Positions 38,287 to 64,000 of a stretch of 64,000 nucleotides of DNA are shown one piece after another. Numbering within the stretch: position 1 is the first letter of the stretch; each line of letters begins with the position of its first letter. The stretch spans positions 384,809 through 448,808 of the forward strand of contig CAWGXL010000011.1 of assembly GCA_963826535.1 (NCBI GenBank), read 5' to 3'. This DNA comes from an uncultured bacterium (GTDB lineage Bacteria > Patescibacteriota > Microgenomatia > Levybacterales > UBA12049). The translations under genes and the position numbers were made by a program. The notes under the pieces are model-generated. The model was given only the letters and a program-made list of their open reading frames with translations. It was not told where the DNA came from and ran no database searches.

Positions 38287-39192
38287 ATGACCTTTCTTGA
38301 AAAATACGAGCTACTTAAAAAATCTATTCCTGTTCCGGCTGTTAATGCCAGCTCGTCTGTTGACTGCGATTATACTGATTTTGTCGATCGATGCAAGAAT
38401 TGCTACTATGCCTTCGATGCGTATTATCTTGAAAACAATATTTATACATACTATGGAGCATATAACAAAATGTTATTAGATTGTCATGGAATGGGTGAAT
38501 GTGAGAAATGTTATGAAAGTGCCGACTGTACCAAATGCCACAGCTGCACTTATTTAATAAACTGCAATAGCAGTAGTGACTGTCATTTTTCAGCCTACCT
38601 AAATTCATGCAATGATTGCTTCGGTTGTGTTGATTTAACTCATAAAAAATATTGCATATTTAACCGTCAATATACAAAGGAGGAATACTTCAAAAAAATT
38701 GAAGAGCTAAAAACAGAAAATCCAAAGAATTTACTAGAGCAAATGTCAGATCTCGAACGAAAGTTGCCGCATCCTGCAACTTACCAATCCAATAGCGAAA
38801 ATTGTCCATACGGTAATAATATTTATAATTCAAAGAATTGTTTTTGGTCTTTCAATACATATTATTTTGAAAACTCGGGCTATTCTTATTATGTATCATA
38901 CGCAAAGAATTGTTGGGATGTCTCTGAATTTGGAGGAAACCCGGGAGTAAAAACAATTTCGGAGAGATGTTATGAGAATTTAAATACAGAGACTTGTTAC
39001 GATTGCACATTTCTTGTGTCAAGCAAGAGTTGTACAAACTGTCATTATAGTAATCAGCTTATAAATTGCTCTGATTGTTTCGGCTGTACCGGGCTAAAAA
39101 ATAAAAAATATTGTGTTTTAAATAATCAACTAACGAAAGAACAATACGAACAAGCCCTAAGAGAGATTAAAAAAGAGTTGGGGTGGAAATAA
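38287..39192 (+). CDS. cysteine-rich internally duplicated repeat protein (paralog 1 of 3)
   Basis: 301 aa with about 40 Cys in CxxC / CFGC motifs; two homologous halves, each ending CFGCxxLxxKKYCxxNxQxTKEQY. The N-terminus MTFLEKYELLKKSIPVPAV is shared with the genes at 62769 and 63707. Confidence 0.6.
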   Translation: MTFLEKYELLKKSIPVPAVNASSSVDCDYTDFVDRCKNCYYAFDAYYLENNIYTYYGAYNKMLLDCHGMGECEKCYESADCTKCHSCTYLINCNSSSDCHFSAYLNSCNDCFGCVDLTHKKYCIFNRQYTKEEYFKKIEELKTENPKNLLEQMSDLERKLPHPATYQSNSENCPYGNNIYNSKNCFWSFNTYYFENSGYSYYVSYAKNCWDVSEFGGNPGVKTISERCYENLNTETCYDCTFLVSSKSCTNCHYSNQLINCSDCFGCTGLKNKKYCVLNNQLTKEQYEQALREIKKELGWK

Positions 39193-39216
39193 AAGTTTTT
39201 GTAGCCTTTGAATTAA

Positions 39217-40482
39217 ATGAAATCGCTATCTCCTCATTTTACATTTAAGATTCTTCAGAAGGATAAAACAACTAAGGCGCGGTTGGGAGAACTAAAAACT
39301 CCGCATGGCAATATACAGACGCCTGCATTTGTGCCGGTGGGAACGCAGGCAACGCTCAAGGGGTTGTCTCCGCTTGAAATGGGAGAGATTGGGGTGCAGA
39401 TACTTTTTGCAAATACTTACCATTTGTTTTTGCGGGGGGAAGAGGATGTGATCGCGAAAGCAGGAGGTTTGGGGAAATTTATGGGATGGGATGGTCCCAC
39501 GATAACGGATAGCGGAGGATATCAGGTATTTTCTTTGGGTGCGGCTCAGAGGGCAGTTAAGGGAATGGATAGGTTGACTAAGTTTTCGAAAAGTGTTTTT
39601 TTAACCAGAGAGGAGAAAGATTCCCGCCTGCGCGGGAATGACGATGGAAAGGTAGGAAGCAAACGATTTAAAGCAGCTAAAGTAGACGCGGAGGGGGTGA
39701 CTTTTTATTCACATCTTAATGGTGATGTGTGCCGTTTGACAGCTGAGCGATCTATTCAAATTCAGGATAAATTGGGAGCGGATTTGATTGTGGCATTTGA
39801 TGATCATGAGTCGCCGCTTTGGGGTCATGAAGAGACAAAGAACTCTTTGGAAAGGACAAATAGGTGGGCTCTTGAGAGTTTGGCTGCACAGACTAGGCGA
39901 GATCAGTTGATGTATGGGGTTGTGCATGGGGGTGTTTTTGAGGATTTGAGAAAGAATTCGGCGAAATTTATTGATAAACATTTTCAGGCTATTGCGATCG
40001 GGGGGTCATATACGTCTAAAGAGGTTTTGCAGCGGGTTATTGATTGGGTTGTGCCAATGGTTGCGGAAGAGAAGCCGAGGCATCTTTTGGGTATCGGGGA
40101 GGTCATGGATTTGTTTGAAGGAGTTAGTAGGGGGATAGATTTTTTTGATTGTGTAGCACCGACGAGACGGGGGCGACACGGGAATATTTATACTTCAGAG
40201 CAGAGTTTAAGAAAAAGTGGGAGCTTTACTTTTCAAATTACTAATGTTCAGTATAAAGCCGATATGAGTCCGCTTGATCCAAACTGCAAGTGTTATACTT
40301 GTCAGAATTTTTCGAGAGCTTATATTCACCATCTTTTTAAGGCTAATGAAATTTTGGGCTTGCGGCTTGCGGCGTATCATAATGTGTTTTTTATTGTTAA
40401 TTTGATGCGCGAGATAAGAGAGGCGATTGGGGAGGGGAGGTTTTTGCAATTGAAGGATAAGTGGTTGGGTGGACGTGATTAG
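39217..40482 (+). CDS. tgt: queuine tRNA-ribosyltransferase (tRNA-guanine transglycosylase)
   Basis: [26 protein letters not shown] and the zinc site CxCxxC...H (CKCYTC). Contains a 27-nt GC hairpin insertion at 39619-39645. Confidence 0.85.
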
Positions 40483-40531
40483 ATTAGGTTTCTGCGTTGA
40501 CTATCTTATAATAATAAGTTAAAATGCTTTT

Positions 40532-40963
40532 ATGGGAATTGAAACCAGGGCAGCTTTTTTAGCAGCAGTTTTATTTACTATTCCTGCTGAAGGACAGGGG
40601 CAAATAGTGGAGAAACGGAAATTATTAGATTGTGAAAATGGGGTTATTGAGGGGTATAAAGAGTCGCAACTTAGAGGAAACGAAACTGTAACCGTAGGTA
40701 AAGTACGTTTATGGTCTGACGGAAATGGCGGGGCAGTTATTGAGGGTCTGGGGAGGGAGATAAAAGTAGGAGAGAATCTAAAATTATCGGATGCGCCTAA
40801 TGCTATTATTATTCCATCTAATCGAATAGTTTTTCAAGACGGTGAGGAGAGGTATGATGTAAAAATATGTAAAGCAGTGCCAGAAGAGCCGCCATATACA
40901 ACAATAGAAATAAGTGCATCCTGTCAACCTGAAATAAAAAATAAACCCCGGTTAAACCACTAA
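40532..40963 (+). CDS. small secreted hypothetical protein (signal peptide)
   Basis: 143 aa with N-terminal signal sequence AAFLAAVLFTIPAEG; the upstream region is shared with the 41064 gene. Confidence 0.45.
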   Translation: MGIETRAAFLAAVLFTIPAEGQGQIVEKRKLLDCENGVIEGYKESQLRGNETVTVGKVRLWSDGNGGAVIEGLGREIKVGENLKLSDAPNAIIIPSNRIVFQDGEERYDVKICKAVPEEPPYTTIEISASCQPEIKNKPRLNH

Positions 40964-62701: not shown

Positions 62702-62768
62702 AGAATTTTCAATTTGAAATTTTCAATTTTCAATCAATTTACAATGTTTCAATTTTCAATTAAAAATT

Positions 62769-63674
62769 ATGACCTTTCTTGAGAAATACGAACTACTGAA
62801 AAAATCTATTCCTGTTCCGGCTATTGTAACTAGAGAATCTGTTGATTGTGAGTATGTAGATTATGCTTATAGATGTAAAAATTGCTATTATTGCCCTTAT
62901 GGATTTAGACTGACTGATAGTATATATACGTATCTTGGTTGGGGCATTAAGCTTGTTGATTGTGATACTGCAACTGAATCCGAAAAGTGTTATGAGTGTA
63001 TTCATTGTAAGAAATGTTACAACTCTACATATCTGATAGATTGCAATAGTTCTACTGATTGTCATTTTTCTTCCTTACTTAACTCGTGTACTGATTGTTT
63101 TGGTTGTGTCAGTCTTACCCATAAGAAATACTGTATATTTAATAAGCAATTCACAAAACAAGAATATTTTAAGAAAGTAGAAGCGAAGAGACGAGAAAAA
63201 CCGGAAAAACTTCTTGAACAAATGCTTGAGCTTAAAAAAACAATCCCACATCCGGCGAGTCAACAATTCGATAGTGAAAACAGTCCGTATGGTAATTATA
63301 TTTACTCGACTAAAAACAGCTTTTGGTGTTTTGACAGTCATTATATGGAAAATTCAGGCTATATTTATACTAGCGGTTTTTCAAAAAGATGTTGGGATAT
63401 GTTTGCAAGCGGAGCAACAATACAAGAAGGTACTTCCTCAGAGTTGTGTTATCAAATTGCTGATTCAGGCGGTTGTTATAACTGCGCATTTCTTTATCGT
63501 TGCGAATACTGTGCTAATTGTTTTTATAGCGATAATCTCATGAATTGTAATGACTGCTTCGGGTGCGTGGGACTAACAAAGAAAAAATATTGCATATTAA
63601 ATAATCAACTTACTAAAGACCAATATGAAAAAGCAATTAAAGTGATCAGAAAAGAGCTTGGGTGGAAAAATTAG
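62769..63674 (+). CDS. cysteine-rich repeat protein (paralog 2 of 3)
   Basis: 301 aa, collinear with the 38287 gene, same N-terminus and CFGC...KKYC motifs. Confidence 0.6.
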   Translation: MTFLEKYELLKKSIPVPAIVTRESVDCEYVDYAYRCKNCYYCPYGFRLTDSIYTYLGWGIKLVDCDTATESEKCYECIHCKKCYNSTYLIDCNSSTDCHFSSLLNSCTDCFGCVSLTHKKYCIFNKQFTKQEYFKKVEAKRREKPEKLLEQMLELKKTIPHPASQQFDSENSPYGNYIYSTKNSFWCFDSHYMENSGYIYTSGFSKRCWDMFASGATIQEGTSSELCYQIADSGGCYNCAFLYRCEYCANCFYSDNLMNCNDCFGCVGLTKKKYCILNNQLTKDQYEKAIKVIRKELGWKN

Positions 63675-63706
63675 CTAAAAAATTAGGTGCTATAATACTA
63701 AGCAAT

Positions 63707-64000
63707 GACATTTCTTGATAAGTATGAACTCCTAAAAAAATCTGTTCCTGTTCCGGCTGTAACCAGGGTGGATACTTTAGAATCTGAATATTCTGATTTT
63801 ATGGGTATGAGTAAAAATTGCTTCTATTGCTTTCATGGGTACAAACTCGTAGACAGTATGTATTCAATTCACGGATGGGGTGCTGACCTAATAGACTGCC
63901 TTTATACTACGGAATCAGAGCGATGCTACGAGTGTATTGAATCCACAAAGTGTCATAGCTGCACTTATCTTATAGAGTGCAACAACTGTACCGATTGTCA
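63707..64000 (+). CDS. cysteine-rich repeat protein (paralog 3, 3'-partial at window end)
   Basis: MTFLDKYELLKKSVPVPAV...CHSCTYLIECNNCTDC; runs off the window. Confidence 0.55.

What the first reader, a model, noticed from the sequence alone, without database searches (positions are those of the whole stretch)
38287..64000. Expanded family of ~300-aa cysteine-rich internally duplicated proteins (three copies, two adjacent)
The genes at 38287, 62769 and 63707 start with the same 18 residues (MTFL[E/D]KYELLKKS[I/V]PVPAV). Each has about 40 Cys in CxxC / NCxxC / CFGC arrays, is built from two homologous halves, and ends with the conserved block CFGC(V/T)xL(T/K)xKKYC(I/V)xNxQ(L/Y)TK(E/D)QY. They have no signal peptide. 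They sit after murD and, as a tandem pair, after the EndoQ-like gene. Such Cys density suggests multi-zinc-ribbon or iron-sulfur-like metal-binding scaffolds. Tandem paralogy with diverged cores but a fixed N-terminus suggests diversification under a shared targeting or assembly constraint. I cannot assign the family.
Basis: seen in the sequence. Interest (0 to 1): 0.6.

Follow-up and report, generated by a model that had tools for sequence, protein, structure and literature searches.

The report
Cysteine-cored beta-solenoid paralogs of CPR bacteria
The three genes belong to a huge, unannotated protein family of ultra-small "candidate phyla radiation" bacteria whose many cysteines most likely pack the core of a very thin coiled rod rather than form metal-binding arrays, and whose relatives sit beside an orphan secretion-type ATPase of unknown role.

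Summary
The paralogs are real: 38287-39192, 62769-63674, and a third starting at 63705 (not 63707) that runs off the window. Each has 27-28 Cys, not about 40. Each is an internal duplication (40% identity, E=1e-35). Pfam and NCBIfam have no model.

The family is very large and named only from Patescibacteria/CPR: 3475 representative clusters, and at least 29 paralogs on the 894-kb source contig.

Coevolution analysis and a pLDDT-90 AlphaFold model indicate a narrow beta-solenoid with 12-residue rungs. Every third residue points inward, and 98% of the half-1 solenoid Cys occupy those positions. They swap freely with Ser, Leu and Val. This argues against obligate zinc-ribbon or Fe-S arrays and resembles, by convergence, beetle antifreeze proteins.

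The fixed N-terminus is a structural cap, not a targeting signal.

Function is inferred only. In relatives the genes form same-strand arrays beside a VirD4/TrwB-like ATPase that lacks a clear membrane anchor, plus a treble-clef zinc-finger module. That suggests interchangeable clients or adaptors of the ATPase. The window itself contains neither partner. Short single-domain relatives occur in phage contigs.

Novelty: new variant of a known kind. Interest 0.66.

The parts
38287..39192 (+). Copy 1 (301 aa, = P0121): complete short-form, double beta-solenoid protein
   Evidence: ORF and translation. Identical to P0121 on the 894,453-bp contig. AlphaFold full-length model pLDDT 73.6.
38287..38343 (+). 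Copy 1 aa 1-19: cap helix plus P-V-P strap (MTFLEKYELLKKSIPVPAV)
   Evidence: Helix 3-13 in the pLDDT-90.5 half-domain model. Mean entropy 0.42 bits among 26 paralogs. Coevolves with the last rung of half 2 (positions 3, 4, 14, 16 with 255, 264-268, 300). Aligns with the linker LLEQMSDLERKLPHPAT.
38344..38676 (+). Copy 1 aa 20-130: half-1 beta-solenoid, about 8.5 rungs of 12 residues. Rung position 1 is an Asn/Asp ladder; positions 2, 5, 8 and 11 point inward (Cys/Ser/Leu/Val).
   Evidence: i to i+12 couplings run through profile positions 22-124. pLDDT 95-98. All 12 Cys of residues 60-125 are in one mod-3 class.
38608..38670 (+). Copy 1 aa 108-128: closing rung and cap motif CNDCFGCVDLTHKKYCIFNRQ
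   Evidence: Most conserved Cys of the family: profile positions 107, 110, 113 at 91-96%; 122 is C, H or Y. N and Q are invariant.
38677..38766 (+). Copy 1 aa 131-160: inter-half helix and linker. The P-H-P strap of half 2 follows directly at aa 161-163 (38767-38775), at the start of the next part.
   Evidence: Helix 131-141. Profile positions P160/H161 (about aa 161-162 of copy 1) coevolve with the last rung of half 1, positions 112-115.
38767..39135 (+). Copy 1 aa 161-283: P-H-P strap, then the half-2 beta-solenoid. It has 12-residue rungs, one 19-residue rung with a variable loop, and ends in CSDCFGCTGLKNKKYCVLNNQ.
   Evidence: i to i+12 ladder over positions 168-275, with a 19-residue step at 206-227. 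Nine of nine Cys of residues 225-280 are in one mod-3 class.
39136..39192 (+). Copy 1 aa 284-301: C-terminal helix with conserved ..IKKELGWK tail, plus stop codon
   Evidence: Alignment A1. Helices 288-297. Position 300 couples with 14 and 41.
62769..63674 (+). Copy 2 (301 aa, = P0030): first gene of the tandem pair
   Evidence: Its position after the PHP/EndoQ-like gene is shared with locus L001 of a related MAG, where the upstream gene is 63% identical.
63705..64000 (+). Copy 3: the first 98 codons are in the window. The full protein is P0025 (298 aa).
   Evidence: Frame scan and exact prefix match to P0025. A TGcTATAAT box lies 7 nt before the ATG.
36823..38259 (+). Context: murD, immediately upstream of copy 1
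   Evidence: Pfam Mur_ligase_M, Mur_ligase_C and MurD-like_N.
39217..40482 (+). Context: tRNA-guanine transglycosylase, immediately downstream of copy 1
   Evidence: Pfam TGT, E=7e-123.
61133..62701 (+).
   Evidence: No Pfam family at E<=0.001. The N-terminus MHYVADLHLHSKYSRA looks PHP-like (sequence). 63% identical to the syntenic ORF in L001.

Best explanation
**Structure (well supported).** The three genes are short-form members of a very large, unannotated Patescibacteria (CPR) family. Each protein is a soluble cytoplasmic rod made of two copies of a ~150-aa module. Each module has four parts:
- a cap helix with a P-x-P strap;
- a very narrow beta-solenoid of about 8-9 rungs of 12 residues, in which every third residue (rung positions 2, 5, 8, 11) points into the core and is Cys or, interchangeably, Ser, Leu or Val;
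- a closing rung, CxDCFGC..L..K.YC..N.Q;
- a helix.

The Cys density follows from the tight core, as in the 12-residue TCTxSxxCxxAx coils of beetle antifreeze proteins. It does not reflect a string of zinc ribbons. One Cys3(Cys/His) site at the closing rung cannot be excluded.

The conserved N-terminus is the strap that caps the end of the second solenoid, either within one molecule or head-to-tail between molecules. Paralogs keep the caps and core and vary a surface patch (rung positions 6-10 of rungs 1-4), which looks like a diversified binding face.

**Function (inferred from gene neighbourhood, not shown).** In relatives the family forms same-strand arrays next to a VirD4/TrwB-like ATPase that has no clear membrane anchor, together with a treble-clef zinc-finger module. 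That module is fused to the core in most CPR and is a separate ~92-110-aa gene in Microgenomates. One such ATPase carries the same zinc-finger domain itself. The proteins are therefore most likely interchangeable clients or adaptors of that ATPase. They could be exported effectors or target-recognition modules used in host or phage interactions.
For: **Family size and distribution**
- 396 close hits, all unnamed.
- 3475 representative clusters at E<=1e-3, and 1156 at E<=1e-30.
- At least 7300 long-form clusters, all annotated 'hypothetical'.
- At least 545 relatives in GTDB species genomes, nearly all labelled Patescibacteria.
- At least 29 paralogs are listed on the 894,453-bp contig that contains the window. 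Their pairwise identity is 52-80%.

**Fold**
- Cys-rich columns fall on every third residue and swap with Ser, Leu and Val.
- Mean-field DCA on 426 sequences gives |i-j|=12 for 41 of the top 150 couplings, across both halves.
- The half-domain AlphaFold model has pLDDT 90.5, with helix, 12-periodic strands, then helix.
- 98% of half-1 solenoid Cys lie in the inward register, and rung cores alternate CCCC/SLCC/CSLC.
- Cross-core pairs show CC/SC/CL/LC swaps.
- Only beta-solenoids appear among the weak PDB fold hits.

**Cap**
- N-terminal positions couple with the last rung of half 2. The P-H-P linker couples with the last rung of half 1.
- The segment is internal in the long forms.

**Variable face**
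- Entropy is 2.6-3.3 bits at rung positions 6-10 of rungs 1-4, against 0.4 bits for the cap.

**Gene context**
- A T4CP-like ATPase (PF10412/DUF87) occurs in 22 of 80 loci. It is always on the same strand, with gaps of 0-1000 nt.
- The cassette ATPase, then zinc-finger ORF, then short cores is present in L002, L003, L004, L111 and L112.
- One contig has eight tandem long forms followed by a T4CP that itself carries zf_Tbcl_2.
- The long forms carry zf_Tbcl and zf_Tbcl_2.
- PMC12102498 reports about two VirD4-like T4CPs per Patescibacteria genome, mostly away from virB4, with function open. About 3% of 12-kb loci would then contain one by chance, against the 27% observed.
Against: - The window itself holds no T4CP-like ATPase and no zinc-finger ORF. 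Its copies sit among housekeeping genes (murD, tgt, a PHP-like gene).
- The link to the ATPase rests on neighbourhood in other genomes. Those 80 loci are not phylogenetically independent.
- The ATPases lack clear TM helices, and only a minority of CPR T4CPs lie near virB4 (PMC12102498). Export is therefore unproven.
- No coordinates were available, so handedness, core geometry and metal or disulfide states were not examined.
- The full-length model is only moderate (pLDDT 73.6).
- The phage single-domain versions keep Cys at nearly every inward position. That could mean Cys has a chemical role, not merely a packing one.
Confidence: 0.55

Rival explanations
1. Metal-binding scaffold. The inward Cys quartets of successive rungs bind Zn, Fe, Cu or Fe-S clusters, so the protein acts as a metal store, buffer or wire.
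For: - 27-28 Cys per protein with CxxC spacing.
- Rungs with four inward Cys are common (CCCC is the commonest pattern in several rungs).
- The closing rung is Cys3 plus Cys/His (CCCC 55%, CCCH 13%).
- Loss of C260 and C263 is concerted (phi 0.55).
- Phage versions have all-Cys cores.
- The long forms carry genuine zinc fingers.
Against: - Inward Cys are replaced by Ser, Leu or Val in 30-60% of sequences at most positions.
- CCCC alternates with SLCC and CSLC in the same rung.
- Position 122 is also Tyr in 12% of sequences.
- There are no Pfam zinc-finger, SPASM or Fe-S hits in the core.
- The fold is predicted confidently without metal.
Confidence: 0.15
2. Exported, disulfide-locked surface or extracellular rods, like beetle antifreeze proteins, used for adhesion or antigenic variation on the episymbiont surface.
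For: - Same rung length and inward C/S pattern as the TCTxSxxCxxAx proteins (PMC4204002).
- Diversified tandem paralogs.
- Neighbouring secretion-type ATPase.
Against: - No signal peptide or TM segment.
- Zinc-finger modules are typical of cytoplasmic proteins.
- No Thr-x-Thr face.
- No sequence homology to TmAFP or PF02420.
Confidence: 0.1
3. Nucleic-acid mimics or decoys in phage-host conflict. A regular solenoid surface imitates DNA, as in pentapeptide-repeat proteins, and paralogs track different enemy proteins.
For: - The best, though weak, PDB fold hits include Qnr, AlbG and EfsQnr.
- Single-domain relatives occur in multiple copies among small early-type genes of phage contigs.
- Fic and TrmB-like genes recur nearby.
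Against: - The proteins are only mildly acidic (median pI 5.7).
- Fold matches are not significant (TM at most 0.32).
- There is no PADLOC match.
Confidence: 0.1
4. Self-assembling cytoskeletal or scaffold filaments. The N-terminal strap of one molecule caps the last rung of the next, giving head-to-tail polymers, possibly mixed among paralogs.
For: - The N-terminus couples with the last rung of half 2, and that coupling could be intermolecular.
- The cap and closing rung are the most conserved parts among paralogs.
- Occasional placement in cell-wall or division gene clusters: after murD here, and between ftsW and murG in L087.
Against: - The same coupling is explained by an intramolecular closed arrangement.
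- About 29 diversified paralogs and a variable face are not expected for a simple polymer.
- The dcw-cluster placement is anecdotal.
Confidence: 0.08

Closest known systems
Tenebrionid beetle antifreeze proteins (TmAFP type; 12-residue repeat TCTxSxxCxxAx; Pfam PF02420)
   Same: - 12-residue rungs.
- Inward small residues at rung positions 2, 5, 8 and 11, with Cys dominant.
- A very narrow beta-solenoid.
   Different: - No detectable sequence homology.
- No Thr-x-Thr ice-binding face.
- No signal peptide.
- Up to four Cys per rung rather than two.
- Helical caps and a CFGC..K.YC..N.Q closing motif.
- Bacterial and cytoplasmic.
- Presumably convergent.
Pentapeptide-repeat proteins (Qnr, AlbG, MfpA)
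   Same: Small cytoplasmic bacterial beta-solenoids. They are among the best of the weak fold hits.
   Different: Those have a 5-residue repeat and 20-residue square rungs with Leu/Phe cores. This family has 12-residue rungs with Cys cores. TM-score is at most 0.32.
Bartonella VirB/VirD4 locus with tandem Bep effector paralogs (comparison from my own knowledge)
   Same: Arrays of diversified paralogs that share a conserved terminal module and are encoded next to a VirD4-type coupling ATPase. Fic genes occur nearby.
   Different: - The conserved module here is a treble-clef zinc finger, not BID.
- The ATPase lacks a clear membrane anchor and is usually far from virB4.
- Translocation is untested.
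- The window copies lack the module altogether.
Phage (CxX)n proteins: Campylobacter phage CPt10_1641 and relatives, PHROG 15341, IMG/VR single-domain forms
   Same: - Period-3 Cys repeats.
- The IMG/VR forms share the N-helix and the CFGC..Y.I.N.Q.TKEEY cap.
- BFVD fold hits at E from 2e-8 to 5e-5.
- PHROG hit at 2.7e-10.
   Different: - Single domain of 100-250 aa.
- Near-perfect low-complexity repeats.
- The Campylobacter phage proteins lack the cap motif, so their homology is uncertain.
- All are of unknown function.

Membership tests
Insect antifreeze beta-helix (PF02420 / TmAFP) | 12-residue coil period | tested here: met
   DCA: |i-j|=12 in 41 of the top 150 couplings. AlphaFold strands at 28-34, 40-46 and 52-58.
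Insect antifreeze beta-helix (PF02420 / TmAFP) | Small inward residues at rung positions 2, 5, 8 and 11, with Cys prominent | tested here: met
   (98% of half-1 solenoid Cys in that register).
Insect antifreeze beta-helix (PF02420 / TmAFP) | Sequence match to the family model or to TmAFP | tested here: not met
   No PF02420 hit at E<=10. hhalign probability 0.4% against the TmAFP sequence, which I recalled from memory.
Insect antifreeze beta-helix (PF02420 / TmAFP) | Thr-Cys-Thr ice-binding face, secretion signal and intra-coil disulfides | tested here: not met
   Rung position 1 is Asn/Asp and position 3 is aromatic. No signal peptide. The disulfide state cannot be tested here.
   Most Cys columns are 36-73% Cys with Ser/Leu/Val alternatives. 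Quartets alternate CCCC/SLCC/CSLC. There are no zinc-finger Pfam hits in the core. Only the long-form termini match zf_Tbcl and zf_Tbcl_2.
   Needs metal analysis of the recombinant protein.
Radical-SAM SPASM or other Fe-S domains | Match to an Fe-S cluster motif or family model | tested here: not met
   No Pfam or NCBIfam hit.
Pentapeptide-repeat proteins | 5-residue repeat giving 20-residue rungs | tested here: not met
   The rung period is 12. Foldseek E>=0.03 and TM at most 0.32.
Hexapeptide-repeat left-handed beta-helix | 6-residue repeat giving 18-residue rungs | tested here: not met
   The period is 12. The only PDB sequence hit (maltose O-acetyltransferase, E=0.06) lies in the linker.
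T4SS coupling-protein clients (effector arrays next to VirD4) | Encoded next to a VirD4/TrwB-type ATPase | tested here: inconclusive
   Met in relatives: 22 of 80 loci, plus L111 and L112. Not met in this window.
T4SS coupling-protein clients (effector arrays next to VirD4) | Recognition by the coupling protein and translocation | not testable with these tools
   Supported only indirectly: a T4CP fused to zf_Tbcl_2, and a conserved ATPase C-terminal tail [FE]E[EP]P[LI][IV].

The most novel reading that the evidence does not exclude
The orphan VirD4-like ATPases of Patescibacteria have no known role. They may work with this family as a dedicated system. In this reading, dozens of diversified Cys-cored solenoid rods carry a treble-clef zinc-finger address tag and are loaded by the ATPase. 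They are then delivered to, or deployed against, the host bacterium or phages. That would make them a main effector or recognition repertoire of the episymbiotic lifestyle. A bolder variant is that stacked Cys4 rungs hold a linear chain of metal ions.
Probability: 0.2. Interest if true: 0.85.

Novelty: new variant of a known kind. Interest (0 to 1): 0.66.

Why it matters
CPR/Patescibacteria have genomes of about 1 Mb, yet this genome keeps at least 29 copies of the family. At roughly 0.9 kb each, that is about 3% of the 894-kb contig. Other lineages carry arrays of eight 1.7-kb genes. Such investment implies strong selection, but every member is annotated 'hypothetical' and no domain library has a model.

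The work gives three things:
- A concrete, testable fold that explains the odd Cys pattern without invoking metal clusters.
- A structural explanation for the conserved N-terminus.
- A specific partner, the VirD4-like ATPases. A 2025 survey counted about two of these per genome and left their function open.

If the link holds, it opens a route to how these uncultivated episymbionts interact with hosts or phages. The solenoid is also a compact, highly regular scaffold that may interest protein engineers.

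Tried and rejected
**Searches that returned nothing useful**
- Pfam and NCBIfam on the three copies and on each half: nothing.
- PADLOC: nothing meaningful for the family.
- PDB profile search: only E=0.06 to an acetyltransferase, in the linker region.
- Foldseek against the PDB with both models: no hit below 1e-3.
- hhalign against the TmAFP sequence: no homology.
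- The look-up of encoding contigs for the source contig failed for P0001, P0003 and copy 2. The positions of the other 26 paralogs could not be mapped.
- tblastn of copy 1 and of one viral form against GenBank phages: no match.
- Literature searches for a prior description of the family, for PF13451, DUF8128, PF23477 and TIGR04272: nothing relevant.

**Readings rejected**
- Assembly duplicates: the copies are only 59% identical.
- Signal peptide or targeting N-terminus: the segment is internal in long forms.
- Hexapeptide or pentapeptide repeat: wrong period.
- Antifreeze function: no Thr face, and the protein is cytoplasmic.
- Strong acidity as evidence for a DNA mimic: pI is about 5.7.
- A specific link to cell-wall genes: the window has only an isolated murD.

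Full report
**1. Observation**

ORF listing and translation confirm two complete 301-aa genes at 38287-39192 and 62769-63674. A third gene begins at 63705, not 63707, and runs off the window. tblastn finds no further copy in the 64 kb.

Copies 1 and 2 are 59% identical. The N-terminal and C-terminal halves of copy 1 align at 40% identity, E=1e-35, so the internal duplication is real.

Each protein has 27-28 Cys, not about 40. None has a hydrophobic N-terminus or a TM segment, and pI is 5.6-7.6.

The upstream neighbour of copy 1 is MurD and the downstream one is TGT. The 522-aa gene before copy 2 has no Pfam match, although its N-terminus looks PHP/EndoQ-like (that reading is my own knowledge).

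**2. Family and organism**

No Pfam or NCBIfam model matches. A word-indexed search gave 396 relatives, none with a functional name. The few that carry a source name are 'hypothetical protein' from Patescibacteria, Microgenomates, Beckwithbacteria or Roizmanbacteria MAGs.

The three window proteins are identical to P0121, P0030 and P0025, all on one 894,453-bp contig. At least 29 family members are listed on that contig. Their pairwise identity is 52-80%, median 61%. A sister contig carries a 94%-identical ortholog of copy 1, so the expansion predates that split and the copies are maintained.

An exhaustive HMMER search found 3475 representative clusters at E<=1e-3, and 1156 at E<=1e-30. A scan of GTDB species genomes found at least 545 relatives. 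Nearly all are labelled as CPR lineages, and many genomes carry several.

Two architectures dominate. The short form (~300 aa) is the core only, as in the window. The long form (~550-600 aa) has an N-terminal zf_Tbcl (PF13451) domain, the core, and a C-terminal region ending in zf_Tbcl_2 (PF23477/TIGR04272). At least 7300 long-form clusters exist, all annotated 'hypothetical'.

**3. What the protein is**

I aligned 426 non-redundant cores. The Cys-rich columns fall on every third residue (profile positions 62...122 and 227...275). At those columns Cys alternates with Ser, Leu, Val or Ile.

In the window copies, all Cys of residues 60-125 and 225-280 lie in a single mod-3 class (12/12 and 9/9; 11/11 and 10/10; 8/8).

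Mean-field DCA gave |i-j|=12 for 41 of the top 150 couplings. The couplings form a continuous ladder through positions 22-124 and 168-275. That is the signature of a beta-solenoid with 12-residue rungs. Rung position 1 is an Asn/Asp ladder, and positions 2, 5, 8 and 11 point inward.

An AlphaFold model of residues 1-145 has pLDDT 90.5. It shows an N-terminal helix (3-13), 12-periodic strands, a run of single-residue bridges every third residue, and a C-terminal helix (131-141). The full-length model is weaker, at pLDDT 73.6.

Neither model has a significant PDB match. The weak hits are all beta-solenoids, with TM at most 0.32.

The rung length and the inward C/S pattern are those of the tenebrionid antifreeze repeat TCTxSxxCxxAx (PMC4204002). 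There is no sequence homology to it, so I regard the resemblance as convergent.

**4. Are the cysteines metal ligands?**

- 98% of half-1 solenoid Cys sit in the inward register.
- Rung cores alternate between CCCC, SLCC and CSLC. Cross-core pairs show CC/SC/CL/LC swaps. That is volume-compensated core packing.
- Only the closing rung is strongly conserved: profile positions 107, 110 and 113 at 91-96%, and 266 at 99%. Position 122 is C, H or Y, and position 275 is 85% C.
- In half 2 the residues equivalent to two of the conserved Cys are Ser in 29% and Leu in 21% of sequences, and they are lost together.

I conclude that obligate multi-zinc or Fe-S arrays are not supported. A single Cys3(Cys/His) site at the closing rung remains possible, and the chemistry is untested.

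**5. The fixed N-terminus**

- MTFLEKYELLKKSIPVPAV aligns with the inter-half linker LLEQMSDLERKLPHPAT.
- It also aligns with FFEQF..L...VP.P, about 100 residues inside the long forms. It therefore cannot be an N-terminal sorting signal.
- DCA couples positions 3, 4, 14 and 16 with the last rung of half 2 (255, 264-268, 300). It also couples P160/H161 with the last rung of half 1 (112-115).

Each helix-plus-strap therefore caps the end of the preceding solenoid, and the N-terminal strap closes onto half 2. That contact could be within one molecule or head-to-tail between molecules.

Among the 26 alignable paralogs of this genome, the cap has a mean entropy of 0.42 bits. Rung positions 6-10 of rungs 1-4 reach 2.6-3.3 bits. 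The result is a stacked, variable surface patch on a constant frame.

**6. Context and likely function**

In 80 related loci the genes usually form same-strand tandem arrays, with up to seven or more per 12 kb.

The commonest non-family neighbour is a VirD4/TrwB-like ATPase (PF10412, DUF87). It occurs in 22 of 80 loci. It is always on the same strand, with gaps of 0-1000 nt, and has no clear TM helix. It often ends in a conserved tail, [FE]E[EP]P[LI][IV]. TrmB-like regulators occur in 19 of 80 loci and Fic genes in 5.

All five Microgenomates-type loci with enough context carry the cassette ATPase, then a ~92-110-aa zf_Tbcl/zf_Tbcl_2 ORF, then one to three short cores (L002, L003, L004, L111, L112). 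The three Microgenomates loci found in the scan of 80 (L002, L003, L004) are therefore also part of the 22-of-80 count.

In one contig, eight long forms are followed by an 845-aa T4CP that itself carries zf_Tbcl_2.

A 2025 survey counted 5,713 VirD4-like T4CPs in 2,918 Patescibacteria genomes. Only 148 were near virB4, and the authors left their role open (PMC12102498). At about two per genome of roughly 1 Mb, about 3% of 12-kb loci should contain one by chance, against the 27% observed.

I therefore infer that the family provides interchangeable clients or adaptors for this ATPase, with the zinc-finger module as the likely docking element.

This is inference from neighbourhood. The window itself has neither partner, and its copies lie among housekeeping genes. 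The position of copy 2 is conserved in a related MAG.

**7. Phage relatives**

- PHROG 15341 (unknown function) matches copy 1 at 2.7e-10.
- About 20 IMG/VR contigs encode 100-250-aa single-domain versions. These have an N-terminal helix, near-perfect (CxX)n repeats such as CSDCSDCFGC, and the same cap CFGC..Y.I.N.Q.TKEEY. There are up to four per contig, set among small genes.
- BFVD gives fold hits at E from 2e-8 to 5e-5, including a Campylobacter phage protein.
- Campylobacter phages such as CPt10 carry several (CxX)n proteins. Their depositors flagged these with PF02420 'insect antifreeze' hits. They lack the cap motif, and current Pfam gives no hit, so their homology is uncertain.

**8. 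Verdict**

The structural description is well supported (about 0.85). The functional link to the VirD4-like ATPase is an inference (about 0.3).

The family is not in Pfam, NCBIfam or the searched literature. The fold class is known, but this bacterial, cytoplasmic, Cys-cored, double-solenoid family and its ATPase/zinc-finger association are not. I rate it a new variant of a known kind, with interest 0.66.

Noticed in passing
window 1-64000: GC skew is positive in every 4-kb block (0.06-0.28), so cumulative skew rises monotonically. Most long ORFs in 36-64 kb, including every one annotated here, are on the + strand. This matches the strand composition disparity reported for order UBA1400 Microgenomates (Ch65, Collierbacteria, Beckwithbacteria) in PMC7143001.
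   Followed up: partly
window 55411-56463 (+) and about 11574-12101 (-): Two Fic/DOC-like genes were detected by tblastn with a Fic protein that recurs next to family arrays in other CPR loci.
   Followed up: no
window 63690-63704: Copy 3 has an extended -10-like box (TGcTATAAT) only 7 nt before its ATG. None of the three copies has a Shine-Dalgarno sequence upstream. The transcripts may be leaderless or have very short leaders.
   Followed up: no
window 26734-27780 (+): A Colicin V production domain is fused to a CAP (cysteine-rich secretory protein) domain. The same fusion lies near a family cassette in L112. A CAP-domain family with TM segments was highlighted as nearly CPR-specific in bioRxiv 10.1101/335083.
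   Followed up: no
window 61133-62701 (+): A 522-aa protein with a PHP-like N-terminus (DLHLHSKYSRA) and a CxxC...CPVC stretch has no Pfam family at E<=0.001. It is conserved at 63% identity and is syntenic in a related MAG.
   Followed up: partly
window 57693-59507 (+), 60707-61126 (+), 32523-33383 (-): Three other genes: an ATP-dependent DNA ligase with all three domains, a small retropepsin-like aspartyl protease, and a tyrosine recombinase (Phage_integrase plus SAM-like domains).
   Followed up: no
L087 15732-17483; window 38287-39192: Family members are occasionally inserted in cell-wall or division gene neighbourhoods. One lies between ftsW and murG in a Pacebacteria contig, and one lies right after murD here. 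This may be coincidence.
   Followed up: partly
L002, L004, L023, L034, L053, L071 and others (T4CP-like ATPase C-termini): The VirD4-like ATPases next to the arrays end in a conserved short tail, [FE]-E-[EP]-P-[LI]-[IV]. It resembles a docking peptide. About 15 of roughly 20 complete copies have it.
   Followed up: no
L081, L082, L086, L089-L110 (IMG/VR contigs); L113 2962-3387 (Campylobacter phage CPt10): Phage contigs encode small proteins made almost entirely of (Cys-x-x)n tripeptides, in several copies per genome. Some share this family's cap motif. Depositors annotated others as 'insect antifreeze protein'.
   Followed up: partly
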